Positions 30,201 to 60,411 of a stretch of 60,560 bases of DNA are shown here, one piece after another (the first letter of the stretch is position 1; every line of letters begins with the position of its first letter). Position numbers and translations under genes: made by a program. The notes under the pieces were generated by a model, which worked only from the letters and a program-made list of their open reading frames with translations, was not told where the DNA came from and did not search any database. Location: positions 1 to 60,560 of the IMG/VR virus record IMGVR_UViG_3300005512_000032, one strand, 5' to 3'. Origin of the DNA: a virus (lineage: Duplodnaviria; Caudoviricetes).

Positions 30201-33200
30201 CTTCGGAGAGTCTGATTTTGGCGAGGAGTCATTCCTTGTATGGGACGCTGACCAAATCTACGTGGAAGCCATAGAAGATATTCAATACGGCGATGTACCG
30301 TACATGGCGGAGTTTAAAGACCCTAGAGAGTCCATGTCTATTGAGAACTTGGCTCGGGAAGCAAAGCGGCCAATTCTTGGAAGGCAAACACAGATTGCTG
30401 ATCTGGATGCGTTCGAAGCAGGAGACTCCCAGACGCGAATTTCTATGCTGTCAGAGACTTTGGTTGGTGAGCGTGGCCTTGAACCAATCCGCCAACCAGC
30501 TCGCATGATGTACTCCCGCCGCGCCATGGCCAACCCATACAACGTGAACATGCAGGACACTATTGTTCCGATCTATCCGGGCACAGAGAACGCACTGAAC
30601 CGTAAGCAAGGCTCCGTTAAGAAAGAAGTGTTTGCCCGTGAGATGTTCGAGCGGACAGGTCTTGATGGTCTGATTGAATACAACGAAGACACCATGGAGC
30701 AGGCGGCCCGCAAGATGGCGACCGAAGCACTCATGGCGCTTCAGTTCGACAACAATGCAATCGGGTGGTATGACGAGAAACTCCGTCAAGCCAAGAACGT
30801 GGTGGAGCTCGTTGAGCCCTCTATCTTTGCAAGCCCAGAGAATGAGTTAGCGTTTGACTACGCACTCGCTGTCACGTCCAACGGTACAGCAGTCATTGAT
30901 AACTTCCCGTACGCTTTATCTGCGTACCGGTACTGGATGAAGAACAACCGCTTCCCGGTTGAAGACTTCACCGTAGGCGGTGAGCGGATCAACGACATGA
31001 AGAAGTCGTTCAGGTTCTACAATGAGTACCAGAACTTGTACAACTCAGGACAGATTGATACCCCATTGGGTGAGTTCTTGGACAACCAGTACCAAGTCCG
31101 TGATCTCAAAAAGGTTCTTCGTGGACTACGCGACAAGTACGACATCAAGATCAGCATCCCAACAGGCGAAGGTGCAAACGCTGTTGTCCGTGGTAGTTTG
31201 ATTCTCGGACCAAAGATTGGCCAAGGTTTCTATCAAAACCTCCGTGGAAACTACAACGAATTGACCGCTGATATGTGGTGGATGCGGATGTGGAACCGGA
31301 TGGTTGGTAATCCGTTCAAGCCACGCCCAACAGCCGAGGTGATCAAAGAACGTAGACAGAAGATGCGTGACCAGATCCGCAATCCTGTCGGTAGCTTAGA
31401 AGCTACAATTATCGAGGACGCTATTCAGCGCTCTGGTTTAAATCGTTCTGACATGAAGTCCAACAGAAACTTAGATGAGTTGGCGGTTGCCATTCGTTCA
31501 CGTTGGAACTCGTACTTCCGTAAGTTCAAGGAAGAGCAGGGTGTTAATCCGGAGAAGCCAAACTTCTTCCGGTTCGTTGACACCTATGTAGGCGGTCTAA
31601 ACGATCAGCTTGAAGACGCACCACGCGGACCAGCAGAACGTCAGTTCATGCGTGACACCACTGCACGAGCACGTGAGTTGCTCCAGCAAGAAGGTGTAAA
31701 TATTAACACTGCTGACTTCCAAGCGCTTCTTTGGTATCCTGAGAAACGCCTGTGGTTATCAGGCGGTGTGGCTCCGGGCCGTGGTTCGGATAACGATTAC
31801 GCAGATGCCGCAATTGAAGCGGCAAGACAAGAGGGGATTTCGGATGAACGAATCCAAGAAGCACTCGCCGATACAAGACCAAAAGGTGTCGCCGCTGACA
31901 GACGTGCCGGATCACCTGATGCCGGAGTTGATCAAGGAGCTGGCCGCACTGACACCAGTGCAGAAAGGTTCTCGCGGCGCCCAGACAGCACAACAGCAGG
32001 CAATGCCGCAAGACGTGTCGCCAACCGTGCAGGGACTAATGGACAAGTATGGAATGTCACTCGAAGAGGCGGAAGCGTACGACAGGCTAACGTAGTTGCC
32101 TCGTACCGTGTCGATCCAGATTTTGCACAAGAGTATTCCACGGGCGGAATATCCACGCCCGAAGTAGTTGAGCTCGAGCAGTCGCCCGAATCAGCGGCTG
32201 TCTTTGCTCAGGCAATTGCCAGCGCATCAACCAAGTCTCCATACGCACCTGCCGTCTACATCTATCCAGAGGCAGATTATACAGGCATGCGTCTGTTTAT
32301 GAATCCAGAAGGCAATGCAGGGTTTGCCCTGAAAGGGAATGACATTGTCAGCGTCTTCAATGATCCAGACAATGGCCTGTCCCGTGTTTCGTATCCAATG
32401 ATCCGCCTTGCGTTCGAGTTAGGCGGCCGTAAGTTGGATGCGTTTGACACAGTCCTTCCAGAGATCTACAGCCAGAATAGCTTCCGCGCTATCAGTCGCA
32501 CACCTTGGAACGATGAGTTCGCTCCAGAGGGCTGGGACAAGCAAGTGTTCCAGACATGGAACAACGGTGAGCCTGATGTTGTGTTCATGGCTTACGATCC
32601 CAAGGCAAAAGAATATCAGGAAGGTGATGGTGAGCTGTTCCAAGACTACGATGAGGCAGTGGCCGCACAGGATGAACAGGCACAACGTTACTCACGTCGA
32701 TTCTCAAGACCGTCTGAATCAGATTTCAGTCTTGAGGAGATCACCAACCGGCTAGTCCAGCAGGCGCCCGAAAAAAATCCAATCATGAAAGTCTTCGACA
32801 AGTTCTTCTTGGGACGGCTCGAAGGCGAAACACGTTGGCAAGCATTCACACGTAACGCAGTGAACAAGTTTTTGCCGGGTTACCTGTTAGACAACTACGT
32901 CAACGGTGAGATCACAGATCCCGCAAACAGTGTCGGGCGTGCCATGGAGCTGTCACAGAACATGAGTGGCCGTCTCTGGGCGCTGTCTGAACTGGGTGCC
33001 ATGCGTTTCAATCCAGACTCCGGAACGGTTGAAGTGATCGACGCACCTGACAACATGGGTCTTCGTGAAATCTTCGAGCCAATCGGTACACAGTACCAAC
33101 AAGAATACTACGCGTATGCGATTGCCAGACGTGAGCTGAAGCTCCGTGAGCAAGGCCGCCAAGGATTCAAGAACCTGAGCAAGGATGACGCACAGCGGAC

Positions 33201-35923: not shown

Positions 35924-36097
35924 TTACGTGTTCTTCTCTTTCAGCTTCTCCAACGCAGTCACAACCCGATACACGCCTGCTTTCTTCTGCATATCTTCAT
36001 CCGTTGGGCTCAGCAGATACACTGCCTCTTCAAGTGCTTTTGTCAGTTCTTCAATGCGGTTTTCGAGTTCATGGATGCGTTTGCTGTCAAAGCTCAT
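35924..36097 (-). CDS. Small coiled-coil hypothetical protein (57 aa)
   Basis: MSFDSKRIHELENRIEEL...; GGAGG RBS; coupled to the upstream gene. Confidence 0.5.
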   Translation of the reverse strand: MSFDSKRIHELENRIEELTKALEEAVYLLSPTDEDMQKKAGVYRVVTALEKLKEKNT

Positions 36098-36789
36098 GTG
36101 TCCTCCCTTAACAACTCTAATTGATCTTCGGACCTAAGATCCCAGTGCAATGGCGTTTGAATTGAATCGATCTCTCTAGCCATCCGCTCAGGACACCGAC
36201 CATTGCCATTCTTAAAATTCCGAGCTACGTTTACGCTATCTGCTGAAGCAAAAGGCCATCTCTTGCCTGCCTGCGCCAACCCCCTGAGCATGTGAATCCA
36301 AGGTAAATGCGCCCGATGTGTCGCTAAAGCGTCAAATGCTTCATCGCATCTTTTTTCCCACGCAGGCGACCCGACTTGCCAATACTGTCCAGACGATCCG
36401 AAACAAATTTTCGGATAACTGTCCGCTAGTTCAAGCAAGTAATCAGTCGGCAACCCCAAATGCCAAACAGGCGCGGCAAAATCAACCGCAAAAGGCCAGT
36501 CCTGTAATCGCTCTTTTTGTTGCTCTAACGTGCCATCAATGACATCTGGAATGACTGCCCAATGTGGATGCCCTAATCGCGGCTCAACCCACTCATAGAA
36601 TTTATCTAGGTTGAACTCTTTGCCCTGAGTGAATGTCGTAAACGCACCATTGTCCCACATTATGCTTTGACCAATCTGCATACACACTTCCGAGTCATGC
36701 GGATGAGCGAAAGACACGCAAAAATGCTTCCCTGCCATCTTGTACAACTCTGCTCTGGGTGTCAGAGGCGTGCCGTGATAGTGGATCAC
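36094..36789 (-). CDS. Putative TGT/DpdA-like base-exchange-fold protein
   Basis: HYHGTP, DNGAF, IPDVI, PVWH, HMLRG and SADS motifs; coupled to a VUT-family gene. Fold assignment is inferred. Confidence 0.5.
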   Translation of the reverse strand: MIHYHGTPLTPRAELYKMAGKHFCVSFAHPHDSEVCMQIGQSIMWDNGAFTTFTQGKEFNLDKFYEWVEPRLGHPHWAVIPDVIDGTLEQQKERLQDWPFAVDFAAPVWHLGLPTDYLLELADSYPKICFGSSGQYWQVGSPAWEKRCDEAFDALATHRAHLPWIHMLRGLAQAGKRWPFASADSVNVARNFKNGNGRCPERMAREIDSIQTPLHWDLRSEDQLELLREDT

Positions 36790-37244
36790 TTTACAAACTT
36801 CCAAACAATAACTGCACCTATCATCTTGACGCAAATCATGATGACAAGACCAAACCAGTTAAAGAATCCAAGCATGAGCAAAAATACAGCAGAATCTACT
36901 GGAGTCGACACAGCAGACGACAGCAATACGCGGTCTCGCATTGGTTTCTTGGTGTAGGTAAACACTAGCGCGTCAATTATTTCAGAAAGCGCAAACGCGA
37001 CTGCACTTGCGACAGCTACAAATGGATCAGCCATCACATACGACAATAAAACGCCTGCAAGCATCGCTAAATATACCCAAACTCCAATCTCCCTCTGTGC
37101 GTAATCACGCAGTACAAAAATAAATCCGACCAAAAATGTTCCGATTGGAATACTTTGATCAAATGGCAACTCAATCATTGGAAGCATTGAGAACGCAAAA
37201 TTAACAACGACAATGCTCGCCAAGTATGCTGATGTGAATATCAT
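36786..37244 (-). CDS. VUT-family (YhhQ-like, queuosine-precursor) transporter
   Basis: Multi-TM; G..FVLRD..Q, AS..AF..SE..D..VF and R...S...S.PVDS.VF motifs. Confidence 0.75.
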   Translation of the reverse strand: MIFTSAYLASIVVVNFAFSMLPMIELPFDQSIPIGTFLVGFIFVLRDYAQREIGVWVYLAMLAGVLLSYVMADPFVAVASAVAFALSEIIDALVFTYTKKPMRDRVLLSSAVSTPVDSAVFLLMLGFFNWFGLVIMICVKMIGAVIVWKFVK

Positions 37245-39345: not shown

Positions 39346-39628
39346 CGGAAGTATGTGGTGCAGACTGTGGTGCAGACTGTGGTTGGTCTTCAGGCTTCAC
39401 ATACGGCTTGCTCGCACTCAATGAAATGTAATTGCCTGCACGGTCCGAGGACTTGTTCCAGCCAACCACTTCCATCTTGCCAAACTGCTCACCGTTGTTG
39501 ACCTGATTGACCAACTCCTTGATCAAGTCGCGGTCAATCTCAAGATTGCCACGGTGATCAGGGTGAGTGTCTTTTTCTTTGCGTTGATTTACAAACAACG
39601 CGCCACGGGGTTTATCATACTGAGCCAT
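39326..39628 (-). CDS. Putative ssDNA-binding protein
   Basis: GALF.N..K....HPD.RG motif; acidic DDKIPF tail; adjacent to the SSAP. Confidence 0.65.
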   Translation of the reverse strand: MAQYDKPRGALFVNQRKEKDTHPDHRGNLEIDRDLIKELVNQVNNGEQFGKMEVVGWNKSSDRAGNYISLSASKPYVKPEDQPQSAPQSAPHTSDDKIPF

Positions 39629-40274
39629 TCTCTGTCTCCTTCAGTTTTCCAGCTACTTTCATGAATGCGTCATAGACCACCTTGTAATCCTCGGGCCGGT
39701 GTTTCTCCAGATCCGACAGTGGTTTTTTGTTCATCGCCCAGAACTGACGCAGTTCCTGAAGCGATGTCTTGCCATTGATGTCTGTCATGAAGGTCAAAAA
39801 AATGTCCTTCAGGGCCGACAGATCATCGACAATTTGGGTTTCGCCTTCCAAGTCTTTGACCTCGTAAGTTTTCTTAGTGTCAGGGTTCTCTGTTTCCCCC
39901 TGATAAATGTACATGCCAAGGCCCATGTACGCCAAGCATTTCACAAGGCAACGTTGGTAGGCTGAGTTAATATCGAACGCGTTCGGGCTCGCCACCGGCT
40001 TGTTCTTGTAATCCAGAACAGGCAATATCTCCTCCACCATTTCGATGTAGCCTGCCGGATCTCCTTCAGGCGGGATCCAGACCCGGACGCAAACCATGCA
40101 CGTGCCATCATCAAACTTGACCAGATCTAGTTTGTCGAACCGAGCTGTGGGGTAGTGCTTCTTCAGCGTGCCCCAAGCCCAAGCCCAAGAGAGATAAGTC
40201 AACCCGTTCTTAGTCTCGGTGTGATCGTTACAATCAATCACCGAAAGGGTGTCCCACACAGATTTATTTTGCAT
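39615..40274 (-). CDS. Sak/Rad52-like single-strand annealing protein (DUF1071)
   Basis: LTYLSWAWAW, LPVLDYKNK and INSA.QRCLVK...GLG.YIY.GE motifs. Confidence 0.8.
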   Translation of the reverse strand: MQNKSVWDTLSVIDCNDHTETKNGLTYLSWAWAWGTLKKHYPTARFDKLDLVKFDDGTCMVCVRVWIPPEGDPAGYIEMVEEILPVLDYKNKPVASPNAFDINSAYQRCLVKCLAYMGLGMYIYQGETENPDTKKTYEVKDLEGETQIVDDLSALKDIFLTFMTDINGKTSLQELRQFWAMNKKPLSDLEKHRPEDYKVVYDAFMKVAGKLKETENGSV

Positions 40275-40650
40275 ACTTAGTGCCCTTGAAAATTTTGTCG
40301 TGCAACTCACGACCCATCTGGCTTGGGTACATTTTGGTGAGCAATGCGCGCTTTTTTGAGTACGTCAGTTTACCGTCTCGCCACATAGCTCTCAGATGAC
40401 CTTCCTTAGTCCCGCCTTCTTTGCGAATCAATCGAGCGATTCTCTTGGCCATTTTCAGCGTTTCATCATTGGTAGTTTTTTCGTACGACCGTTTCTCTTC
40501 CGGGCTGGACTCTTCCATGATAAGTTGCCCCGAAACAGAGCTCATCTTTTCTCGCAGGTTTTTCAAAACCTGTAGTTGATAGGCGTGATGCTTCAGCATC
40601 TGTGACACTTGATCAATTTCTTGATCGATAATTTTCACTGCGTCAGACAT
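40264..40650 (-). CDS. Hypothetical protein
   Basis: AAGGAG RBS before MSDAVK. Confidence 0.5.
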   Translation of the reverse strand: MSDAVKIIDQEIDQVSQMLKHHAYQLQVLKNLREKMSSVSGQLIMEESSPEEKRSYEKTTNDETLKMAKRIARLIRKEGGTKEGHLRAMWRDGKLTYSKKRALLTKMYPSQMGRELHDKIFKGTKYAK

Positions 40651-41539
40651 TTTCGTCTCCTTTGTATTGCTCACAAAACTCTGCGACCCCGCAGAAATTA
40701 CCTGCACACCGGATGAATTCACCTTTTCTGTGGTCCACATATAGGCCATCTGGCTTGTCCGCGACTTTTATATGAAGCATTGCTTCTTCTTCTGTGTCGT
40801 AGACCTTGATTGCAGTCTTTCGGCCGTCTCTCATCACGGCCCACTTGCTTGGCTTCGCCCATCGCTCCTCATCTGTACACAGCGGAAGAGGATCCGCGAA
40901 ATCAAACGTGGTTTGAGCGGACTGATGCTTGATCACCCGCTCCAAAACGTATTCCTCTTGCTTCTCGTAGTCCCAAACCGGGACATCGATCACAGCAATA
41001 GGAGAATCAGGATAATTATCGTCATAGCTTGCTTTTCTCCGACTCCAGTCACGCACGAACGCACAGATCTGTAGGTCCGTGACCTCGATCTGCTTCTCAC
41101 GGCGGATCAGCCATGCGTAACAGTTCAATTGACGCTCCCAGTCTGGTTTATTAGAAAGCACAGACCACACAGAGCACACCTTGTAATCCATCAGCGCCAA
41201 GGTGCCATCAGACTTCGTTCTCTGTACATCGATGGCGCCCGAAAGAGTCCAGTTGTTGAACTTGGTAAAGATACGCTCCTCATGCACCGTGTCAGGCGTC
41301 TCACCCGCCTCTTCCAGTATGTGATGGACCGCAGTACCAAACAAAGACCACACCCTTTCAGAGAGGTCCACAGATAACTCTTTGGCGTGCAGTTCTCTCA
41401 GCTTGTTAATACGAGGGGCATCAATTAGAGTTGTGACGCTGATGTCCGCATCACCTCTGGAGTATTTATCCGAACGGGCAAACCGCTCGATCTGCTCAGG
41501 CAAGTTGTAGAGATTGGTTATAATCACAGGGCCTCCCAT
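40643..41539 (-). CDS. PD-(D/E)XK (Cas4/RecB-like) exonuclease
   Basis: GTAVH, E.R, LSGAID, DYK and QLN.Y motifs; C-terminal Cys cluster. Confidence 0.8.
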   Translation of the reverse strand: MGGPVIITNLYNLPEQIERFARSDKYSRGDADISVTTLIDAPRINKLRELHAKELSVDLSERVWSLFGTAVHHILEEAGETPDTVHEERIFTKFNNWTLSGAIDVQRTKSDGTLALMDYKVCSVWSVLSNKPDWERQLNCYAWLIRREKQIEVTDLQICAFVRDWSRRKASYDDNYPDSPIAVIDVPVWDYEKQEEYVLERVIKHQSAQTTFDFADPLPLCTDEERWAKPSKWAVMRDGRKTAIKVYDTEEEAMLHIKVADKPDGLYVDHRKGEFIRCAGNFCGVAEFCEQYKGDENV

Positions 41540-44603: not shown

Positions 44604-44632
44604 AAAAAAAAAGCCCCGCCCGAAGGCGAGGC
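44604..44632 (-). terminator. Rho-independent terminator ending the putative early operon
   Basis: - strand GCCTCGCC-TTCG-GGCGGGGC followed by T9. Confidence 0.85.
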
Positions 44633-45814: not shown

Positions 45815-46030
45815 TTATCTAACCGTGAAATCACTGATGACTGAGTCGAAAGCGTCGATCTTTCTTTGAATTGCGCGCTTGTCTTCTTCCGAAAGCATGT
45901 CCATGTCCATGAGCTCCACATTACAAGACCTGCTGTCATGGAGTTTGCCCAGAAGAAGTTGATCCACAAGCGTCTCACCATCTTCGATGTATAATTCAGC
46001 CTTCACTGTGATTTGAATTTTGTCACTCAT
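45815..46030 (-). CDS. Hypothetical early protein
   Basis: GGGAG RBS. Confidence 0.5.
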   Translation of the reverse strand: MSDKIQITVKAELYIEDGETLVDQLLLGKLHDSRSCNVELMDMDMLSEEDKRAIQRKIDAFDSVISDFTVR

Positions 46031-46041
46031 TTCATTTCTCC

Positions 46042-46632
46042 CTAGTAGTTGTACTGCTCTGCACGGCGATCACGCACTTCTCGCTCGAACGCGATGTAGT
46101 GCTTGAACGTTGTTGGCTGAACATAACCCGGACCCTCGAGCCCATCGTAGAATGATTGAATCCATTCGGCCGCCTGAACCCAGTGGGTAAAGCGGTGAAT
46201 GTCATCACTCTCGCACTGGTCACAGTCACGTGACCATGAGTAGAAATAGATGCCGTCCTTAAACTCTTGATCAAGGCGCTGGAACATCCAGTCGAAAAGC
46301 TCGGTCAGTGACTGACGCTTTAAAGGCTTGATGTCATAGTACGAATACTTTGGAGCGCCGACATCAGTGCTGTCATCGATCTCATGCATCCACTTGTGAG
46401 ACGCCAGTGCGCGTGGGTAAAACCAACCCCTGCGAACTCGCCCGCGAACCAGACGCATGGTCTCTTCAGTCTCCTCTTTTGAATCAGCGTGAACAGTGCG
46501 GTAAGTTCTTAGATACTCCCGCGTGAAATCATTCCACAGATCGTCATAGGCGGTATGCATTTCAGCGAATGACTTGTCTTCGTTTGCCTCGTTCGAAAGA
46601 AGCGCGAAACAGATTTGATTGTAAAAGTTCAT
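46042..46632 (-). CDS. Hypothetical early protein
   Basis: GGGAGA RBS directly downstream of a hammerhead. Confidence 0.6.
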   Translation of the reverse strand: MNFYNQICFALLSNEANEDKSFAEMHTAYDDLWNDFTREYLRTYRTVHADSKEETEETMRLVRGRVRRGWFYPRALASHKWMHEIDDSTDVGAPKYSYYDIKPLKRQSLTELFDWMFQRLDQEFKDGIYFYSWSRDCDQCESDDIHRFTHWVQAAEWIQSFYDGLEGPGYVQPTTFKHYIAFEREVRDRRAEQYNY

Positions 46633-46654
46633 AGGTATTCTCCCAATTGATTGA

Positions 46655-46715
46655 GGCCTGTCTCATCAGATCGTGGGCGGCCATCCCACAATGACCCGCC
46701 GGAGCGGGTTTCGAC
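46655..46715 (-). ncRNA. Hammerhead ribozyme, type II (HH-E)
   Basis: - strand GUC GAAA CCCGC-UCCG-GCGGG UC^ AUUGUGGG-AUGGCCG-CCCACGAU CUGAUGA GAC AGGCC; predicted cut between 46693 and 46692. Confidence 0.93.
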
Positions 46716-47039
46716 TTACGCCATGACAACGTCATTGAACCAGTCTTCGATCCACTTGTCGCTGTTCGCTGGGTTCGCGTCAGGACGGGTGTAGTTCATC
46801 GAGTGATCCATGACTGTCTCGTCATCATTGACGAACAGATTGATGTGCGCCGAACCACGGTACACTCTGTCGTCCCCGTAGAATCTCAGCACAGGCAAAT
46901 CATCCAGTGCTTCGATCATGTCCTTGACTTCCTTGTAGCTCGAAGAGTTCTCAACCTCGAGCCCCTCCATGGAGACCACGTCAATCGTGAAACCGTGATC
47001 GTTCAGTGCGTGCTTGATCAGTGATAGATATGCTTTCAT
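46716..47039 (-). CDS. Hypothetical early protein
   Basis: Its stop codon abuts HH-E. Confidence 0.6.
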   Translation of the reverse strand: MKAYLSLIKHALNDHGFTIDVVSMEGLEVENSSSYKEVKDMIEALDDLPVLRFYGDDRVYRGSAHINLFVNDDETVMDHSMNYTRPDANPANSDKWIEDWFNDVVMA

Positions 47040-47275
47040 GACTTCCCCCGAATCAGGTGTGGTTCAACCAGAAACAAATTCTCTGGCGTGCAAGTTGATA
47101 CTGCGTAGTTGGCGCCATGGAACCGTACGCCTGACTCTCCGATCCAGCCCACGTCCTTGCACACGATGCGCTTGGGCGTGACTTTGGAGATCTCGTAGAC
47201 GCGGTCCTCGAGGCCGTTGATGTTCCAGACCAGTTGGCCTGCGCGTAGATTGTGCTGAATGTTGTTTGTGTTCAT
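47036..47275 (-). CDS. Hypothetical early protein
   Basis: RBS present; coupled to the next gene. Confidence 0.55.
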   Translation of the reverse strand: MNTNNIQHNLRAGQLVWNINGLEDRVYEISKVTPKRIVCKDVGWIGESGVRFHGANYAVSTCTPENLFLVEPHLIRGKS

Positions 47276-47305
47276 AGTGTTTCCCTGTTGCTTACTGAGT
47301 AAACG

Positions 47306-47345
47306 AATGAGGCGCCCGAAATATTTCAGACGCCTTCATTTTTTT
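47306..47345. terminator. Intergenic hairpin (terminator-like on +, or a processing stem)
   Basis: AATGAGGCGCCCGAA-ATAT-TTCAGACGCCTTCATT followed by a T run on the + strand. Confidence 0.45.
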
Positions 47346-47754
47346 AAGATCCCATGTGGACCAGTAAGAATTGAGTCTTGCCCATAGACACCGGCTCAAT
47401 CTGTTCAATGAACCGTCCCCAGTAACCACACTTGTCCATCAGGTCTGCCACACAATAGGCCATCTCCAATGGATCCATGTACTTGCCGTAGACGCCCGCC
47501 AAATGCTCTGAGAACCAGAGCGGCGAGTCATCACGCATAACAGCGTGCTCTACACCTTGACTCAGGTCAGGCGACTTGAAAGCGACAGCGTATTGACCAT
47601 CAGGCAAATCAATCTGAGGACATTCATCGTCCAGTGAAAACATGATTCGCAGTGGCTGTTGGCAGTCGTTCTGTGTGCTCGACTTGAACTCATAGACGGT
47701 GCTCAGGTTATAGCCGTTCCGGAGGTCCATCGCGGCTTCATGTAAATCAACCAT
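47344..47754 (-). CDS. Hypothetical early protein
   Basis: True start is probably the ATG at 47754 after GGGAGA; the longer call runs into the ribozyme. Confidence 0.55.
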   Translation of the reverse strand: MVDLHEAAMDLRNGYNLSTVYEFKSSTQNDCQQPLRIMFSLDDECPQIDLPDGQYAVAFKSPDLSQGVEHAVMRDDSPLWFSEHLAGVYGKYMDPLEMAYCVADLMDKCGYWGRFIEQIEPVSMGKTQFLLVHMGS

Positions 47755-47772
47755 AGTTATTCTCCCGTGTTT

Positions 47773-47836
47773 TGACATGGCTCTTCAGGCCGTGGTCTGT
47801 CACACCACAACGACAGGGCCGGAGCCCTGTTTCGCC
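47773..47836 (-). ncRNA. Hammerhead ribozyme, type II (HH-D)
   Basis: - strand GGC GAAA CAGGGC-UCCG-GCCCUG UC^ GUUGUGGU-GUGACAG-ACCACGGC CUGAAGA GCC AUGUCA; loop UGACA pairs with tail UGUCA; cut between 47812 and 47811. Confidence 0.92.
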
Positions 47837-48034
47837 TCACGAACAATGACGCAGTTCGATTGCGTCCTCCGGCAGGTATACAGAATAAAAATCCTGCACG
47901 TTTTCAACCAGCTCGTCATGGAGCAGGCAGAAACTAAATGGCTTGAAATACATGATCTCGCCATCGTCAAACTTGCAGTACATGACGCGAGTGTAATTGT
48001 CGGGCATCGAGCCCATCGTGACTTTAGGTATCAT
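47837..48034 (-). CDS. Hypothetical early protein
   Basis: RBS present; stop codon abuts HH-D. Confidence 0.55.
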   Translation of the reverse strand: MIPKVTMGSMPDNYTRVMYCKFDDGEIMYFKPFSFCLLHDELVENVQDFYSVYLPEDAIELRHCS

Positions 48035-48052
48035 GGTTCCCCCTTGGGCCGC

Positions 48053-48934
48053 TTACGCGGCCTCCACTAGTGATGACATGTCGGCGGTGTCCAGAGCGAA
48101 CCGCGCCGCCTTCTCTGCGTGCGAGCATGCTGTGATCAATGCCCGCTTGTCTTTCTTCAATACGTTCAGCCAGTTGTTCAGGTATTTGGCGTGATCGTCC
48201 CGTGGCTCATTGGTGACACCAGTCACACCACAGAGAATCGCCGCACCCATCTCAGCAACCAGCTCCTCGAAGGCATACGCCTCATCGCCGAAGCGCTTGC
48301 CAAACTCACGATTGAGTCGTGACTCGTGACCGGTCCAGTGGACCAGCTCGTGGAGTGCGGTGCCGTAGTAGCCGGCAGGATCCGCGAACTGTTCAGGCTT
48401 GGGCAGGGTGATGGCGTCCACACTTGGAGCGTAGAATGCACGATCGCTGGCCACGTTGCGGATGACCGCGCCCGAACCAGATAAAACGGCTTCAGCGGTC
48501 ACGTGCTCCTCCCAGTCATTGTCATCCGGGATAGTGTCCGGCTCAATACGTAAACCATCAGCTCCCTGCACTTGGTCAATGTTGAAGACCACGAACGACT
48601 TCAGGATAGGGAACGAAACAGTCTCACCTGTCTCGTCTTCTTTGGTCACCTTAGAGAACCAGACCACGTGTGTGCCCTTGGATCCCTTGGTCACTTGAGC
48701 GCCCATCGACTTCCACTGCTTGAACGTGGCGAAGACTGGTTGGCCCCAGCCGTTGTCCATCATGGCAAGCTGAAGCATCCAGCGATTGACTCCAGAGTAT
48801 GGACGCCCAACCGCAGAGCGAGGAGCGCCGTGCTCCACTGTCGCCGCAACCCATGGCTGGGTCCAGTTGGCGCCGTGTGTCTCCATCATTTCGATCACGC
48901 GATCTGTGATCTGCTCAATAACATTTGATTTCAT
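48053..48934 (-). CDS. ardC: ArdC-like antirestriction protein (ssDNA-binding domain plus zincin)
   Basis: W..PW, YSG.N...L, TFKQW...G.QV.KG.KG, VFN.DQ, HELVHWTGH..RL.R and YA.EELVAE motifs. Confidence 0.9.
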   Translation of the reverse strand: MKSNVIEQITDRVIEMMETHGANWTQPWVAATVEHGAPRSAVGRPYSGVNRWMLQLAMMDNGWGQPVFATFKQWKSMGAQVTKGSKGTHVVWFSKVTKEDETGETVSFPILKSFVVFNIDQVQGADGLRIEPDTIPDDNDWEEHVTAEAVLSGSGAVIRNVASDRAFYAPSVDAITLPKPEQFADPAGYYGTALHELVHWTGHESRLNREFGKRFGDEAYAFEELVAEMGAAILCGVTGVTNEPRDDHAKYLNNWLNVLKKDKRALITACSHAEKAARFALDTADMSSLVEAA

Positions 48935-48953
48935 GGTGTTCTCCCAGTTGTTT

Positions 48954-49013
48954 GCCCTGTCTCATCAGTGTGGGTAGGGCTCATCCCACAGACCGGCCGG
49001 AGCCGGTTTCGAC
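48954..49013 (-). ncRNA. Hammerhead ribozyme, type II (HH-C)
   Basis: - strand GUC GAAA CCGGC-UCCG-GCCGG UC^ UGUGGG-AUGAGCCCUA-CCCACA CUGAUGA GAC AGGGC; loop GCCCU pairs with tail AGGGC; cut between 48991 and 48990. Confidence 0.95.
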
Positions 49014-49216
49014 TATGCTGGATACAACTCCTGCTTTGGCATTTCGATCTCTTCGATAACGAACTCGCAAAGTAAATTGTGAGCGGTCATCGAACCCTGC
49101 CAATTCATCGCGCATTGTTTGTTGTACGTGGACACCATCAGCACCTTTGGTGCTTGGTTCCACTTAGTGCTTCCGCGCTCTTGAGCATAGACGTTGTATA
49201 GCTTTGAAGTATCCAT
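49013..49216 (-). CDS. Hypothetical early protein (67 aa) flanked by two ribozymes
   Basis: Start MDTSKLYNV after GGGGA RBS. Confidence 0.55.
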   Translation of the reverse strand: MDTSKLYNVYAQERGSTKWNQAPKVLMVSTYNKQCAMNWQGSMTAHNLLCEFVIEEIEMPKQELYPA

Positions 49217-49237
49217 GTGTATTCCCCTTATGTGTTT

Positions 49238-49297
49238 GGCCTGTCTCATCAGTGGCAGGAGGCCGGATCTGCCAGACGCCCCGTAGGGCGTTTCGAC
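49238..49297 (-). ncRNA. Hammerhead ribozyme, type II (HH-B)
   Basis: - strand GUC GAAA CGCCC-UACG-GGGCG UC^ UGGCAG-AUCCGGCCUC-CUGCCA CUGAUGA GAC AGGCC; loop GGCCU pairs with tail AGGCC; cut between 49275 and 49274. Confidence 0.95.
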
Positions 49298-49740
49298 TAT
49301 GCCTTGGTCCAGTACGAATTGACTGGGCGGTATGTGCAGTCCCAGAGGTCTCGACACTCGCCATTCACAATCGCGGTGAGGTGACCTGAGTTGGTGACCA
49401 CAGCGCGGCTGGGTGCAGTGTGCCAGTCGCGCAACTTAATCAGTTTGCCAAGACCATCACGTGGACACTTGTTTTTGATCCAGCCCTGATCCTTCAGGTA
49501 CCGCTCAAAAACGCATGGCCAATTGGGATAGGCGCCGTATTCCATGCCCAAGTACATCAGCTCGCGGAAGACCTGTTCGTATGGCAGGTCCAGCGCGATC
49601 ACGATGGAGCGAACCACACAGTCCTCTGTGCGCTTGCCCCGAAATTTGTACCCAACCTTGGATCGTCCGCCATCGTCCCAAACCCAATTGATCTCAGATT
49701 GAAGACCAAGGTCTTTGCAAACGTCTTTGTATAAGTTCAT
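49297..49740 (-). CDS. First early gene; hypothetical, possibly a papain/C39-like fold
   Basis: DCVVRSI...GHLTAI.NG...D.WD gives a candidate Cys/His/Asp triad; GAGGA RBS. Confidence 0.55.
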   Translation of the reverse strand: MNLYKDVCKDLGLQSEINWVWDDGGRSKVGYKFRGKRTEDCVVRSIVIALDLPYEQVFRELMYLGMEYGAYPNWPCVFERYLKDQGWIKNKCPRDGLGKLIKLRDWHTAPSRAVVTNSGHLTAIVNGECRDLWDCTYRPVNSYWTKA

Positions 49741-49748
49741 AGGTAGTT

Positions 49749-49808
49749 CCTCGTGTTTCGTTGGCGTTCTCATCAGAGCAGGCTCGCCACTGCCTGCTAA
49801 CACGAAGG
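49749..49808 (-). ncRNA. Hammerhead ribozyme, type III with minimal stem II (HH-A)
   Basis: - strand CCUUCGUG UU^ AGCAGGC-AGUGGCGA-GCCUGCU CUGAUGA G-AACGCCAA-C GAAA CACGAGG; loops UGGCG and CGCCA are complementary; cut between 49799 and 49798. Confidence 0.85.
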
Positions 49809-50041
49809 AGGGTTATCCGGCTGGTGCACGGTGCGAATGTTTGAGGGAGACCTTACTGTGACAGCGGAACCCCGAAGGCGCTGAAACCATCCAGAATCCA
49901 GAAACACCGTCAGCGTGCAGACCAGATAACCTGAGAAGCAAATTGTTAAAAACCACTCCGCCGATGCGGGGCTCAGGGGCCGCCTGAGCGAGGGCTGGTT
50001 GTTGAAACATCGCCAAAGACAACACCCAACCCACATCTAGG

Positions 50042-50070
50042 ATTCTGAGACTTGCGGAGACACCTGTCAA
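50042..50070 (-). promoter_or_regulatory. Sigma70-type promoter for the early operon
   Basis: TTGACA-17 nt-CAGAAT on the - strand with an A-rich upstream tract. Confidence 0.7.
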
Positions 50071-50173
50071 CAGTTGGAGACAAAATAATTCAACTTTTTT
50101 TCGGTAAAATGGTAAGTGACTGGAGCGCAAGGGATTTTCTGGCGCCCGAAATAGATCAGACGAGGATCTCCAA

Positions 50174-50632
50174 ATGACAGAGACACGATTACAGGTAGTG
50201 GCAGGACAATCAATCAAGGGAGGACTGACCGCTAAACAAGAGGCTTTCGCTCAGGGAGTGGCATCAGGCAAGACACTCAGTGAGGCGTACAGGAATGCGT
50301 ACGATGCTGAGAACATGAAAGACGCCAGCATATGGAACGAGGCAAGCAGACTCATGGATCACCCACAGGTCACAGCGAGGGTCAGTGCGATACAGAAGGC
50401 CACAGAAGAGAAAACACTGCATGATCAGGCTCGCTTGAGGAGGCTGGTTCTTGAGCGGCTGTACGAAGAGAGCGCCAACGCAGAGAGTGACAGCGCCCGG
50501 ATCAGAGCTCTCGAACTCCTAGGCAAATCCATTGCCATGTTCACCGATAAGCTGGAACAGGAGACCAAGGAGAGGAGTGCGGCCGAGATAGAACAGGAGC
50601 TCATCGCCCGTCTTCAAAGGCTTTCGGGCTGA
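50174..50632 (+). CDS. terS: Terminase small subunit
   Basis: LTAKQEAFA......SEAYR.AY...ASRL...P.V and ALELLGK...MF motifs. Confidence 0.8.
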   Translation: MTETRLQVVAGQSIKGGLTAKQEAFAQGVASGKTLSEAYRNAYDAENMKDASIWNEASRLMDHPQVTARVSAIQKATEEKTLHDQARLRRLVLERLYEESANAESDSARIRALELLGKSIAMFTDKLEQETKERSAAEIEQELIARLQRLSG

Positions 50633-51834: not shown

Positions 51835-52048
51835 CATCATCAACTTCCCCGGTGACACATCGCTTGATCTTGACGCGAACGAAATGATCAGAAGTGTCGC
51901 TGACGAGTTCAACTTCGAAAGCATTGTGATCGTTGGATTCACAGGCAATGATGAATTTACATTGTGTTCATCTGTAGGCAAATCATCTGACATGGTGTTT
52001 ATGTTGGAGATGGGCAAGCATGCGGTTATTCAATCGTCTCAGTGTTAA
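51827..52048 (+). CDS. Hypothetical protein
   Basis: Likely start MSNIINFPG, overlapping the previous stop. Confidence 0.5.
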   Translation: MSNIINFPGDTSLDLDANEMIRSVADEFNFESIVIVGFTGNDEFTLCSSVGKSSDMVFMLEMGKHAVIQSSQC

Positions 52049-58786: not shown

Positions 58787-59695
58787 ATGGCGATTTCACG
58801 TTCCCAGCTCCTTAAAGAGCTGTTACCGGGTCTCAATGCATTGTTCGGTTTGGAGTACGACAAGTACGAAAACGAGCATGCAGAGATTTACGAAACTGAA
58901 AACTCAGAGCGTTCATTCGAGGAAGAGGTCAAGCTGTCAGGCTTTGGCGCGGCTCCTGTGAAGAACGAAGGCGCGGCTATCCAGTACGATACTGCACAAG
59001 AAGCCTTCACTGCTCGCTACAACCACGAAACGGTAGCAATGGGTTTCTCTGTCACTGAAGAAGCGATGGAAGATAACCTGTATGACGCATTGTCTGCTCG
59101 TTACACCAAGGCACTTGCACGTGCAATGGCGTACACCAAGCAAACAAAAGCGGCGGCATTGCTGAACAACGGTTTCACAACATTCAACTCTGGCGATGGT
59201 ACGACTCTGTTCAGCACCACACACGCCACTGTTGGTGGAACGAACAACCGTAACCGTTTGGCCACAGATGCGGATCTCAACGAGACATCTCTTGAGCAAG
59301 CAGTCATTGATATCGCGGCTTTTACAGACGAGCGTGGTCTTTTGATCGCGGCACGTCCACGTAAGCTGATTGTTCCACCTGCATTGATGTTCGTTGCAAC
59401 TCGTTTGCTCGAGACAGATCTGCGTGTTGGTACAGCGGACAACGATATCAACGCGATCCGCTCAAACGGCTCTATCCCAGAGGGATATCGTGTCAACCAT
59501 TACTTGACAGACAGTGATGCATTCTTCATCACAACAGATGTACCAAATGGAATGAAGCACTTCGTGCGGACTCCAATGCAGACATCTATGGACGGTGACT
59601 TCGACACAGGTAACGTGCGCTACAAGGCGCGTGAGCGTTACTCATTCGGTGTTTCTGACCCACTTGGAATCTTCGGTTCACCCGGAGCATCCTAA
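58787..59695 (+). CDS. Major capsid protein
   Basis: MAISR.QLLKELLPGLNALFG.EY and DFDTGN.RYKARERYSFG..D motifs; strong RBS; terminator follows. Confidence 0.88.
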   Translation: MAISRSQLLKELLPGLNALFGLEYDKYENEHAEIYETENSERSFEEEVKLSGFGAAPVKNEGAAIQYDTAQEAFTARYNHETVAMGFSVTEEAMEDNLYDALSARYTKALARAMAYTKQTKAAALLNNGFTTFNSGDGTTLFSTTHATVGGTNNRNRLATDADLNETSLEQAVIDIAAFTDERGLLIAARPRKLIVPPALMFVATRLLETDLRVGTADNDINAIRSNGSIPEGYRVNHYLTDSDAFFITTDVPNGMKHFVRTPMQTSMDGDFDTGNVRYKARERYSFGVSDPLGIFGSPGAS

Positions 59696-59725: not shown

Positions 59726-59769
59726 TCCTGACAGCATTATGCTGACACTTGCCACGACAGGAGATTGAC

Positions 59770-60411
59770 ATGGCTAACACAACTTTCACAGGACCAGTTC
59801 GGTCCGAAGGCGGATTCGAGGTTGTTGACAAAAATGCGGCAACCGGAACTTTCACCACTTCCCTAGATATTGCATCTGATGGTGCGATTGATTTAACTTA
59901 TTCAAGCTCCGACACAGGTACTGGGAACGTCGAACCGATTGTCATGGAAAACACCATGACAGGCGCTGGCGGATTGGCAGGTCGTGCTCGCTTTCAATTG
60001 AATGCTGATGCCGCTTTGGGTTCTTACTCAAACGCAATGAAAGCAATCACTGTATATGGAGCCTCAGGCAAGACAACCGGCTTGGGCTCAGCTTTTGTTG
60101 CAGAGATGACCTTATCTGCTGGCACTGATGCAGGCACTTATGCCCCACTTGAGATTGAACTGAATGCTCCAACAGGTGCCGACACAGGTACGTTGACATC
60201 ATTCATCCACATTTCAACACAGGGTGATGATGTCGCAACAATTGATGACAACGTGCGTTTGTTCAACCTTGCGGGTGTAACTGCGGGTACAGGGCATGTG
60301 TTCCAAACAGGTAACACCGCCCCAGCAACAGTTGGTGGCACATTGAAGTGCCGTGTTGCAGGAACAGACTACTACGTTATCCTGTATACAAGCGAAGCGA
60401 CCACCACCTAA
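59770..60411 (+). CDS. Putative head fibre/structural protein
   Basis: MANTTFTGPVRSE.GF N-terminus; AGGAG RBS. Confidence 0.6.
   Translation: MANTTFTGPVRSEGGFEVVDKNAATGTFTTSLDIASDGAIDLTYSSSDTGTGNVEPIVMENTMTGAGGLAGRARFQLNADAALGSYSNAMKAITVYGASGKTTGLGSAFVAEMTLSAGTDAGTYAPLEIELNAPTGADTGTLTSFIHISTQGDDVATIDDNVRLFNLAGVTAGTGHVFQTGNTAPATVGGTLKCRVAGTDYYVILYTSEATTT

What the first reader, a model, noticed from the sequence alone, without database searches (positions are those of the whole stretch)
46655..49808. Array of five hammerhead ribozymes punctuating the putative early operon
Seen: five - strand elements (46655-46715, 47773-47836, 48954-49013, 49238-49297, 49749-49808) have the full core CUGA(U/A)GA, GAAA and a GUC/GUU cleavage triplet. 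Their stems differ in sequence but keep pairing. The four type II copies start exactly at the upstream gene's stop codon and end just before the next RBS. Established: hammerheads self-cleave to 2',3'-cyclic phosphate and 5'-OH ends, and some are known from phage and metagenomic DNA. Inference: this is a protein-independent mRNA-processing system that cuts one transcript into units of about 524, 284, 1179, 1119 and 2090 nt, functionally analogous to RNase III processing of T7 early mRNA. The 5'-OH ends could alter stability, including that of the ardC mRNA.
Basis: partly seen in the sequence, partly recalled or inferred. Interest (0 to 1): 0.95.

Follow-up and report, generated by a model that had tools for sequence, protein, structure and literature searches.

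The report
Five hammerhead ribozymes between phage genes
Five self-cutting hammerhead RNA motifs sit between the genes of one operon of a marine phage, a real but already described arrangement thought to chop a long phage message into single-gene pieces.

Summary
The fifth element (49807-49749) gets no usable Rfam hit. It still has a complete core, and compensatory changes in relatives support its stems I and III (12 of 21 pairs, 0 of 500 shuffles). It is a type III permutation with a one-pair stem II and a loop-loop pseudoknot. The predicted cleavage sites, the fragment sizes and the stop-ribozyme-RBS layout are all correct.

The arrangement is not new. Perreault et al. 2011 (PMC3088659, passages read) described clustered hammerheads flanking genes in prophages, including the anti-restriction gene ardA. 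They showed cleavage in vitro and in E. coli and proposed the same mRNA-processing role. The same layout is common in IMG/VR contigs. No RNA data exist for this phage, so cleavage here is inferred.

In passing, the ribozyme halves look re-assorted between related phages, so they may mark gene-cassette borders.

Verdict: new member of a known kind, of modest interest.

The parts
50042..50070 (-). Promoter-like site (TTGACA, 17 nt spacer, CAGAAT), a candidate start of the operon transcript about 240 nt upstream of the first ribozyme
   Evidence: It matches 10 of 12 consensus positions, but promoter-like sites in this region are no more frequent than in shuffles (7 found against a mean of 6.8). 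This is only a candidate.
49749..49807 (-). HH1, a type III hammerhead variant in the 5' leader. It has a one-pair stem II closed by an 8-nt loop that is complementary over 5 nt to loop I. The cleavage triplet is GUU and the cut falls between 49799 and 49798.
   Evidence: stem I 7 of 7 pairs and stem III 5 of 8 pairs with changes on both sides in relatives L327, L404 and L133. No Rfam hit; 18.8 bits.
49297..49740 (-). Gene A, 147 aa, function unknown (PHROG 3754)
49235..49298 (-). HH2, a type II hammerhead that overlaps the TAG stop of gene A. The cut falls between 49275 and 49274.
   Evidence: 40.4 bits, cut-off 37
49013..49216 (-). Gene B, 67 aa, no family match
48951..49014 (-). HH3, a type II hammerhead that overlaps the TAG stop of gene B. 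The cut falls between 48991 and 48990.
   Evidence: 35.2 bits, below the cut-off of 37
48053..48934 (-). ardC-like anti-restriction gene, 293 aa (ArdC N-terminal domain plus zincin-like metallopeptidase domain)
   Evidence: PF08401 at 1.2e-29, PF18818 at 1.5e-47; PHROG 7245 at 1.4e-81
47837..48034 (-). ORF of 65 aa, no family match. No ribozyme lies between it and ardC.
47770..47837 (-). HH4, a type II hammerhead with core CUGAAGA, abutting the TGA stop. The cut falls between 47812 and 47811.
   Evidence: 37.2 bits, cut-off 37
47344..47754 (-). ORF of 136 aa, no family match
47310..47335 (-). Terminator-like hairpin inside the operon (11 pairs, weak T tail). It may be a partial terminator or a stabiliser.
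   Evidence: Contigs of relatives diverge here (loose ends at 47335 and 47344).
46716..47275 (-). Two overlapping ORFs of 79 aa and 107 aa, no family match
46652..46716 (-). HH5, a type II hammerhead abutting the TAA stop. The cut falls between 46693 and 46692.
   Evidence: 43.9 bits, cut-off 37
46042..46632 (-). ORF of 196 aa, the first gene of the last predicted unit, no family match
44613..44632 (-). Terminator-like hairpin (8 pairs, 7 of them G-C) followed by a run of T, the likely end of the operon

Best explanation
The five elements are genuine hammerhead ribozymes, transcribed as part of one - strand message that runs from about 50.0 kb to 44.6 kb of a roughly 60.5 kb marine phage genome.

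Proposed mechanism:
1. Each ribozyme folds as it is transcribed and cuts itself 3' of position 17.
2. The leader ribozyme HH1 removes the 5' leader.
3. The four type II copies cut between genes.
4. The predicted products are about 524 nt (gene A), 284 nt (gene B), 1179 nt (ardC plus a 65-aa ORF), 1119 nt (three ORFs) and about 2090 nt.

What the type II layout gives each piece:
- The upstream fragment keeps its stop codon, so no non-stop mRNA is made. It ends in the stem III hairpin with a 2',3'-cyclic phosphate.
- The downstream fragment starts with a 5'-OH and the stem I hairpin, followed by a short fixed leader and its own ribosome-binding site.
- Each unit therefore has defined, structured ends and a translation start insulated from whatever lies upstream. 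This would allow unit-specific stability and expression without a host RNase.

Shown here: the motifs, their structure, covariation and position.
Shown by others on other arrays: cleavage.
Inferred for this phage: cleavage, transcription as a single message, and any effect on stability or translation.
For: Family match. Four elements match Rfam Hammerhead_II at 35.2-43.9 bits.

Core and helices. All five have a complete core and the three helices.

Pseudoknot. Loop I is complementary to the tail in all four type II copies, with different sequences. In 186 similar viral elements, 168 show at least 4 nt of such complementarity. When tails were permuted among elements the mean was 45.2 and the maximum 62 (200 permutations).

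HH1. Stems I and III covary across the window, L327, L404 and L133: 92.8% of cells are paired, 12 of 21 pairs change on both sides, and 0 of 500 shuffles reach this.

Position and strand. All five lie on the coding strand, in intergenic or leader positions. In 80 ArdC-encoding viral loci, all 26 hammerheads found lie on the ardC strand.

Generality of the layout. 170 of 203 type II hits abut the stop of an ORF of at least 40 codons. 151 of 186 are followed by a Shine-Dalgarno-like motif and a start within 80 nt, most often at 22-25 nt.

Literature.
- Clustered prophage hammerheads flanking genes, including ardA, cleave in vitro at all sites and in E. coli, and mRNA processing was proposed for them (PMC3088659, passages).
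- A natural one-pair stem II hammerhead with a pseudoknot cleaves at more than 1.2 per minute at 0.5 mM Mg (same paper).
- A hammerhead 13 nt upstream of the first early gene of haloviruses HF1 and HF2 coincides with a mapped 5' end (same paper).
Against: No RNA evidence. No listed run that holds this sequence is on record as RNA, so neither transcription nor ends were observed.

Weak points in individual ribozymes.
- HH3 is below Rfam's cut-off.
- HH1 gets no usable Rfam match.
- HH1 carries U at position 17 (GUU), whereas its three relatives have GUC. It may therefore be slower.

Folding. Single-sequence folding is only weakly better than shuffles (z-scores -1.3 to -2.5). For HH2 the minimum-energy fold is not the hammerhead fold.

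Transcript boundaries. The promoter and terminator are consensus matches that are no more frequent than in shuffles. An internal terminator-like hairpin at 47335-47310 may split the operon.

Competition with ribosomes. A ribosome terminating at the abutting stop codon would cover stem II and part of stem III, so cleavage may compete with translation.

Function still open. Reviews still call the role of bacterial and phage hammerheads an open question (PMC6765202, PMC6155905, passages).
Confidence: 0.7

Rival explanations
1. The ribozymes are mainly portable intergenic linkers (stop codon, ribozyme, ribosome-binding site). Their conserved cores would serve as joints for recombination, so that gene cassettes are shuffled among related phages. 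Self-cleavage would then act as the insulator that makes any cassette order work. This adds to the processing role rather than excluding it.
For: Chimeric and displaced ribozymes in relative L325 (large terminase 85% identical).
- One type II ribozyme combines the stem III half of window HH2 (identity 1.0) with the stem I half of window HH3 (0.91).
- Another is 95-100% identical to HH2 but sits between genes with no DNA similarity to HH2's neighbours.
- The genes the two phages do share are only 77-83% identical.
- The 79-aa gene lies between two ribozymes in L325 but not in the window.

Metagenome contigs. Contigs of two runs from two different studies (X1, X3) join 46693, the cleavage nucleotide of HH5, through 12 other letters to 48978 inside HH3. 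That places the 107-aa gene directly before ardC. Eight of the 24 listed loose ends of relatives' contigs lie at or inside hammerheads, which cover about 10% of the stretch.

Other viral loci. 11 pairs of near-identical type II ribozymes have both flanks dissimilar. 20 pairs have only one flank similar, and 19 have both similar.

Recombination genes. The phage encodes an exonuclease and a Sak-like single-strand annealing protein.
Against: - The sample is small and partly redundant; L120 appears to be the same contig as L325.
- Flank similarity was judged at the DNA level only, so diverged homologues count as unrelated.
- There is no control showing that homology ends more often at ribozymes than at other intergenic spacers. 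Phage mosaic joints are commonly intergenic anyway.
- Contigs built from short words break or mis-join at repeats, which could produce the loose ends and joints.
- Short G+C-rich hairpins may be alike by convergence.
- Searches of the held library found no paper proposing this. That shows only that it was not found there.
Confidence: 0.3
2. Cleavage is conditional rather than constitutive. Each ribozyme would act as a switch whose cutting depends on translation of the upstream gene or on ion conditions, setting the ratio of coupled to uncoupled expression. A terminating ribosome would cover stem II and stem III.
For: - The stop codon begins 2-3 nt before stem II in all four type II copies, so ribosome and ribozyme must compete for the same RNA.
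- In HH1 the 3' strand of stem III overlaps the Shine-Dalgarno-like GAGG, so cutting could free it.
- Perreault et al. suggest that slower phage variants may be regulated (PMC3088659, discussion passage).
- HH1 has the less usual GUU triplet.
Against: Nothing here measures rates. In L327 the Shine-Dalgarno-like motif lies outside stem III, so the overlap is not conserved. The tested prophage arrays cut efficiently during transcription in vitro.
Confidence: 0.2
3. The motifs no longer cleave and serve only as structured spacers, for example hairpins that stop exonucleases or pause transcription.
For: One copy is below the Rfam cut-off and one is unrecognised by it. No cleavage data exist for this phage.
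Against: Every invariant core nucleotide is intact in all five copies. The core is kept while the stems vary by compensatory change. The pseudoknot needed for fast cleavage is also kept. Plain hairpins would not need a conserved core.
Confidence: 0.05
4. Successive cleavage and ligation yield circular or spliced RNAs from the units between ribozymes.
For: Hammerhead cleavage is chemically reversible. Each unit is bounded by a 5'-OH and a 2',3'-cyclic phosphate.
Against: Perreault et al. looked for such products from clustered prophage hammerheads and detected none (PMC3088659, passage). Nothing in the sequence calls for it.
Confidence: 0.03

Closest known systems
Clustered hammerhead ribozymes flanking genes in prophages (Agrobacterium tumefaciens triple array around ardA, Clostridium scindens, Azorhizobium caulinodans; Perreault et al. 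2011, PMC3088659, passages read)
   Same: Several hammerheads of mixed type lie in the sense orientation between small phage genes, including an anti-restriction gene. The proposed role is the same: cutting long phage transcripts into single-gene or operon-length mRNAs.
   Different: Here there are five copies in 3.2 kb of a free, complete marine phage genome, and the anti-restriction gene is ardC rather than ardA. Cleavage has not been tested.
Rfam RF02276, type II hammerhead with a loop I to 3'-tail pseudoknot
   Same: Four copies match the model over its full length and keep the pseudoknot.
   Different: One copy scores 1.8 bits below the curated cut-off.
[quoted passage not shown] 2011, Figure 4 legend and text)
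   Same: HH1 has a single G-C pair as stem II and relies on a pseudoknot with loop I. The type II model aligns its stem I, core and tail.
   Different: HH1 is the type III permutation. The pseudoknot strand is closed into an 8-nt loop by C11.1 and GAAA, and stem III is the open helix. The published example is described as type II.
HHphage of haloviruses HF1 and HF2, 13 nt upstream of the first gene of an early polycistronic transcript (PMC3088659, discussion passage)
   Same: A leader hammerhead lies just before the first start codon of a phage operon, as HH1 does (stem III ends 9 nt before the ATG at 49740).
   Different: HHphage has a variant core that needs high salt. HH1 has a canonical core.
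RNase III processing of T7 early mRNA (recalled, no call)
   Same: A polycistronic phage transcript is cut between genes into stable units that end in hairpins.
   Different: That system uses a host protein enzyme acting on double-stranded sites and leaves 5'-phosphate and 3'-OH ends. Here the RNA cuts itself, leaving 5'-OH and 2',3'-cyclic phosphate ends.
RiboJ-type synthetic ribozyme insulators (recalled, no call)
   Same: A self-cleaving hammerhead placed before a ribosome-binding site removes the upstream context.
   Different: Those are engineered parts derived from a satellite RNA ribozyme. Here the arrangement is natural and repeated.

Membership tests
Hammerhead ribozyme | Core C3 U4 G5 A6 N7 G8 A9 | tested here: met
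   CUGAUGA in four copies and CUGAAGA in HH4 (position 7 is free)
Hammerhead ribozyme | G12 A13 A14 followed by the A15.1-U16.1 pair, and H (not G) at position 17 | tested here: met
   GAAA and a U-H step in all five. Position 17 is C in four copies and U in HH1
Hammerhead ribozyme | Three helices around the core, with a G10.1-C11.1 pair | tested here: met
   Type II copies: stems I of 6-8 pairs and stems III of 5-6 pairs by the detector's count, which leaves out the A15.1-U16.1 pair; stem II of 3 pairs, read from the printed stem II strands GUC/GAC and GGC/GCC. HH1: stem I 7 pairs, stem III 7 pairs, stem II 1 pair. Covariation for HH1.
Hammerhead ribozyme | [quoted passage not shown] | tested here: met
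   4-5 nt of Watson-Crick complementarity in all five. In the wider viral sample, 168 of 186 against a mean of 45.2 when tails are permuted. For HH1 the pseudoknot sequence is invariant in close relatives and differs, while staying complementary, in L133.
Hammerhead ribozyme | Score at or above Rfam's curated cut-off | tested here: inconclusive
   Met by three copies (43.9, 40.4 and 37.2 bits against 37). HH3 scores 35.2. HH1 has no hit in 16 kb and 18.8 bits in 121 nt.
Hammerhead ribozyme | Site-specific self-cleavage giving 2',3'-cyclic phosphate and 5'-OH ends | not testable with these tools
   No listed run holding this sequence is on record as RNA. This needs in vitro transcription or end mapping.
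Clustered phage hammerheads that process polycistronic mRNA (Perreault 2011) | Several hammerheads in the sense orientation, flanking genes of a phage or prophage | tested here: met
   Five on the coding strand within 3.2 kb of a complete phage record with terminal repeats
Clustered phage hammerheads that process polycistronic mRNA (Perreault 2011) | Transcription of the flanked genes as one RNA that is then cut at every ribozyme | not testable with these tools
   Only consensus promoter and terminator matches are available. There are no RNA data.

The most novel reading that the evidence does not exclude
The unit bounded by two cleavage sites would be both the unit of expression and the unit of gene shuffling in phage accessory regions. 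That unit runs from the stem I half through the leader, ribosome-binding site, ORF and stop codon to the stem III half. Type II hammerheads would be portable, self-insulating linkers. Their conserved single-stranded core segments would be the only crossover points that keep the ribozyme working. The phage's own annealing recombinase could then re-assort cassettes in any order while each keeps a fixed 5' end and an intact stop.
Probability: 0.3. Interest if true: 0.6.

Novelty: new member of a known kind. Interest (0 to 1): 0.3.

Why it matters
This is a clean, complete example of a published but still unexplained arrangement. Five ribozymes of two topologies lie in one operon of a complete phage genome, with the anti-restriction gene ardC inside a flanked unit.

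It could serve as a test case for what phage hammerheads do, which reviews still list as open. Three small generalisations came out of the survey:
- Type II copies almost always abut a stop codon (170 of 203). Type III copies almost never do (1 of 50, the single case being the window's own HH1, whose upstream frame is probably not a gene), and type I copies are intermediate (20 of 41).
- Hammerheads are frequent next to ardC, occurring in 21 of 80 viral ardC loci and always on its strand.
- Ribozyme halves appear re-assorted between relatives.

None of this changes the classification, but each point is cheap to test on a larger scale.

Tried and rejected
Searches for close relatives.
- The search for related loci with gene A and with the 196-aa protein found none in IMG/VR.
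- blastn of 46000-50200 against named phages matched only part of ardC, in Caulobacter and Brevundimonas phages.
- tblastn with gene A gave only distant hits of 30% identity or less.
- blastn of the 71-nt HH2 stretch against named phages gave only weak matches (best E 0.01) and was dropped.

Nearest named phages. By large terminase these are Pelagibacter phage HTVC027P (55.8%), phage 023Pt_psg01 and phage DSL-LC04. They have no RF02276 match at E<=0.01 (0 of 3), so no cultured relative with such an array was found.

Terminase relatives in IMG/VR. My detector found hammerheads in only 7 of 80 loci, and two of the ten hits look dubious. Many of these loci are short, so this is not a measure of absence.

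RNA evidence. No RNA holder is listed for this sequence. The four DNA runs that were laid are contigs and say nothing about expression.

Other checks.
- A sixth-ribozyme check found no other Rfam ribozyme family in the window at gathering score. My pattern scan found no other convincing core with stems. Two + strand core-like strings, at 45834-45851 and 51900-51920, lack the helices.
- One of the 5 metagenome matches to the HH1 core string (L406) has no stems and was left out of the alignment. L405 is the same phage as the window (99.9% over 13.5 kb) and was also left out. L407 and L408 repeat L404.
- The MAFFT alignment of ten type II copies (A2) puts HH4's longer stem III out of register, so I made no column-based pair count on it.
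- The ORF 49813-50217, which ends just before HH1, looks like a chance frame and overlaps the start of the small terminase gene on the other strand. I rejected it as a gene by eye only.
- Supplementary figures of PMC3088659 (S1-S6) could not be opened. They may show layouts closer to this one than the text tells.

Full report
WHAT IS THERE

The window is a complete virus record of 60,560 bases with direct terminal repeats. Its large terminase is closest, among named phages, to Pelagibacter phage HTVC027P (55.8% identity). The DNA occurs in marine, saltern and sediment metagenomes, and the host is unknown.

Between about 50.0 and 44.6 kb a run of - strand genes lies divergent from the small terminase gene (50174-50632). 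A terminator-like hairpin followed by a run of T closes it at 44632-44613.

The order of features on the - strand is:
- leader;
- HH1;
- gene A (147 aa, PHROG 3754, function unknown);
- HH2;
- gene B (67 aa);
- HH3;
- ardC (293 aa: PF08401 at 1.2e-29, PF18818 at 1.5e-47, PHROG 7245 at 1.4e-81);
- a 65-aa ORF;
- HH4;
- a 136-aa ORF;
- a terminator-like hairpin at 47335-47310;
- ORFs of 79 and 107 aa;
- HH5;
- a 196-aa ORF and further small ORFs.

Eight of the ten proteins scanned have no Pfam or PHROG family.

CHECK OF THE OBSERVATION

Rfam's type II hammerhead model (RF02276) hits four places on the - strand:
- 46716-46652, 43.9 bits;
- 49298-49235, 40.4 bits;
- 47837-47770, 37.2 bits;
- 49014-48951, 35.2 bits.

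The first three reach the gathering score of 37. The fourth falls just below it, with E 5e-4 in 16 kb.

Each copy has the invariant core, GUC at the cleavage site, hairpin stems I and III of different sequence, and a three-pair stem II. Each also has 4-5 nt of complementarity between loop I and the tail behind stem II, and the sequence of that pairing differs between copies. This is the pseudoknot that defines most type II hammerheads (PMC3088659).

A pattern detector of my own found these four and nothing else of type II in the window. It found no hit in shuffled copies of about 1.2 Mb of phage DNA.

The stop codons TAG, TAG, TGA and TAA begin 2-3 nt before the stem II strand. A Shine-Dalgarno-like motif plus ATG follows 24-27 nt behind stem II.

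THE FIFTH ELEMENT

HH1 (49807-49749) has CUGAUGA, GAAA, the A15.1-U16.1 pair, U at position 17, a stem I of 7 pairs and a stem III of 7 further pairs. Its stem II is a single G-C pair closed by an 8-nt loop, five bases of which are complementary to loop I.

Rfam does not find it at E<=10 in 16 kb. When only 121 nt are searched, the type II model aligns its stem I, core and pseudoknot strand at 18.8 bits. This suggests that HH1 is a type III permutation of the one-pair stem II, pseudoknotted hammerhead.

Relatives support this reading:
- A contig with an 81%-identical terminase (L327) carries the same element at the same place, with changed stems and GUC.
- Three metagenome contigs (L404, L407, L408; one version) have entirely different stems I and III around the same loops.
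- L133 has the same architecture with a different, still complementary, loop pair.

On the four-sequence alignment A1, 92.8% of cells pair. Twelve of 21 pairs change on both sides (stem I 7 of 7, stem III 5 of 8), no shuffle of 500 reaches this, and slid registers give 34-46% pairing. With four sequences this is modest, but it is consistent.

Rows left out of A1 were L405 (the same phage as the window, 99.9%), L407 and L408 (identical to L404), and L406 (core string without stems).

A natural hammerhead with a one-pair stem II and a pseudoknot has been shown to cleave fast at 0.5 mM Mg (PMC3088659). The architecture is therefore credible. The GUU triplet of the window copy may make it slower.

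HOW COMMON IT IS

In those loci my detector found 186 type II elements in 114 of 120 loci, with arrays of up to 7 on one strand.

Of these 186 elements:
- 150 have the stop of an ORF of at least 40 codons starting 2-8 nt before stem II;
- 151 have a Shine-Dalgarno-like motif plus a start within 80 nt;
- 122 have both.

The search pattern began with AG, which favours TAG. The requirement for a long open frame ending there is not forced by the pattern.

Over all 404 sequences held, 170 of 203 type II hits abut such a stop, against 1 of 50 type III hits and 20 of 41 type I hits. The single type III case is the window's own HH1, whose upstream frame is probably not a gene.

In 80 viral loci chosen only for encoding ArdC, 21 carry hammerheads. 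All 26 hits lie on the ardC strand, against 2 hits in shuffles. Five end within 120 nt before ardC, and ten loci have one starting within about 80 nt after it.

The closest ArdC relative (L244, 59% identity) has a type III copy, three type II copies and a type I copy within 3.1 kb. The detector and Rfam each miss some copies that the other finds.

WHAT IS KNOWN

Perreault et al. [quoted passage not shown] They also report that:
- three such arrays cleave at all sites during in vitro transcription;
- the Agrobacterium triple array flanking ardA cleaves in E. coli;
- ardA also lies just downstream of a hammerhead in three Legionella strains.

Two reviews repeat the processing idea and call the biological role open (PMC6765202; PMC6155905; passages). 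A 2026 paper sets DNA-phage ribozyme hits aside as already described (PMC13725137, passages).

My searches of the held library found no paper that links hammerheads with ArdC or with cassette recombination. That shows only that nothing was found there.

HOW IT MOST LIKELY WORKS

Shown here: the motifs, their structure, covariation, strand and position.
Shown by others on other arrays: cleavage.
Inferred for this phage: one transcript from near 50.0 kb to 44.6 kb, cut at five sites into units of about 524, 284, 1179, 1119 and 2090 nt.

The type II topology fits an intergenic site:
- The open stem II lets the ribozyme start at the stop codon.
- The cut lies 23-25 nt behind the stop, so the upstream message keeps its stop and ends in the stem III hairpin.
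- The downstream message begins with 5'-OH and the stem I hairpin, then a short fixed leader and its ribosome-binding site.

The type III topology fits a leader, because almost the whole ribozyme stays with the message and only a short 5' strand is discarded.

What the ends do to stability depends on the host's RNases and is not known. Because a terminating ribosome would cover stem II and part of stem III, cleavage may compete with translation of the upstream gene.

A LEAD OUTSIDE THE QUESTION

Relative L325 (terminase 85% identical) has a leader type III ribozyme of ordinary form, followed by three type II copies.
- The first type II copy joins the stem III half of window HH2 (identity 1.0) to the stem I half of window HH3 (0.91).
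- The second is 95-100% identical to HH2, but its flanks have no DNA similarity to HH2's flanks.
- The third has HH5's stem III half joined to a new stem I half.

The genes the two phages share are only 77-83% identical. The 79-aa gene sits between two ribozymes in L325 but not in the window.

In DNA contigs of other samples, two runs from two studies (X1, X3) join 46693, the cleavage nucleotide of HH5, through 12 other letters to 48978 inside HH3. Eight of the 24 listed loose ends lie at or inside hammerheads.

Across other loci, 11 pairs of near-identical ribozymes have both flanks dissimilar. Twenty pairs have one flank similar and 19 have both. These counts include at least one contig fetched twice.

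The phage encodes an exonuclease and a Sak-like annealing protein. Together this suggests, but does not show, that ribozyme-bounded units are shuffled as cassettes.

The caveats are real:
- Contigs built from short words break at repeats.
- There is no control for ribozyme-free spacers.
- Flank similarity was judged at the DNA level only.

VERDICT

The interpretation matches the published hypothesis and remains untested for this phage. This is a new member of a known kind, and its interest is modest.

Noticed in passing
window 59726-59772 (+): Rfam Mu-gpT-DE RNA (RF03012, 57.6 bits, cut-off 49) lies just behind the 302-aa ORF at 58787-59695. The same family is found in the terminase relatives L326, L327, L328, L359 and L365.
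   Followed up: partly
window 46500-49900; runs X1-X4: Contigs of related phages from other samples often stop matching at or inside the hammerheads (8 of the 24 listed loose ends). Two runs carry a joint from 46693 to 48978 that puts the 107-aa gene directly before ardC. This could be cassette exchange, or assembly breaks at repeats.
   Followed up: partly
L325 1-1400 (-) against window 46650-49810: The ribozyme halves are re-assorted. One L325 copy combines HH2's stem III half with HH3's stem I half. Another is 95-100% identical to HH2 but sits between different genes. The leader ribozyme of L325 is an ordinary type III with a 4-pair stem II, not the one-pair form.
   Followed up: partly
window 49300-49305, 49016-49021; L325 three sites: The last sense codon before the TAG that overlaps the ribozyme is GCA at two window copies and at all three L325 type II copies. 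In one L325 case the gene's real stop lies 15 nt further upstream, as if GCA-TAG travels with the ribozyme.
   Followed up: no
window 39615-41539 (-): The phage encodes an exonuclease (PHROG 2139, 7.5e-46) and a Sak-like single-strand annealing protein (PHROG 659, 3.7e-39). This is a recombination pair of a kind that I recall (no call) can act on short homologies.
   Followed up: no
window 36094-36834 (-): An ORF matches PHROG 887, annotated queuine tRNA-ribosyltransferase (4.3e-43). By recall (no call), this could point to a DNA-modification route against restriction, alongside ArdC.
   Followed up: no
window 27232-35343 (+): A single ORF of 2703 aa. It was not examined.
   Followed up: no
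all held loci (404 sequences): Hammerhead topology tracks position. 170 of 203 type II hits abut the stop of a long ORF, against 1 of 50 type III hits and 20 of 41 type I hits. In arrays, type III is the first member in 12 of 50 arrays but makes up only 8 of 96 later members. The loci were picked by ribozyme patterns, so the sample is biased.
   Followed up: partly
L104 5529 and 6228; L017 2973 and 3651: Two near-identical pairs of type II ribozymes occur in opposite order in two contigs, with dissimilar flanks.
   Followed up: no
L406 6738-6759 (+): An exact 22-base match to the HH1 core with loop II occurs without stems I or III around it. It is unexplained.
   Followed up: no
window 47310-47335 (-): A terminator-like hairpin lies inside the operon, between the 136-aa and 79-aa ORFs. 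Contigs of all four laid runs diverge from the window at 47335 or 47344.
   Followed up: no
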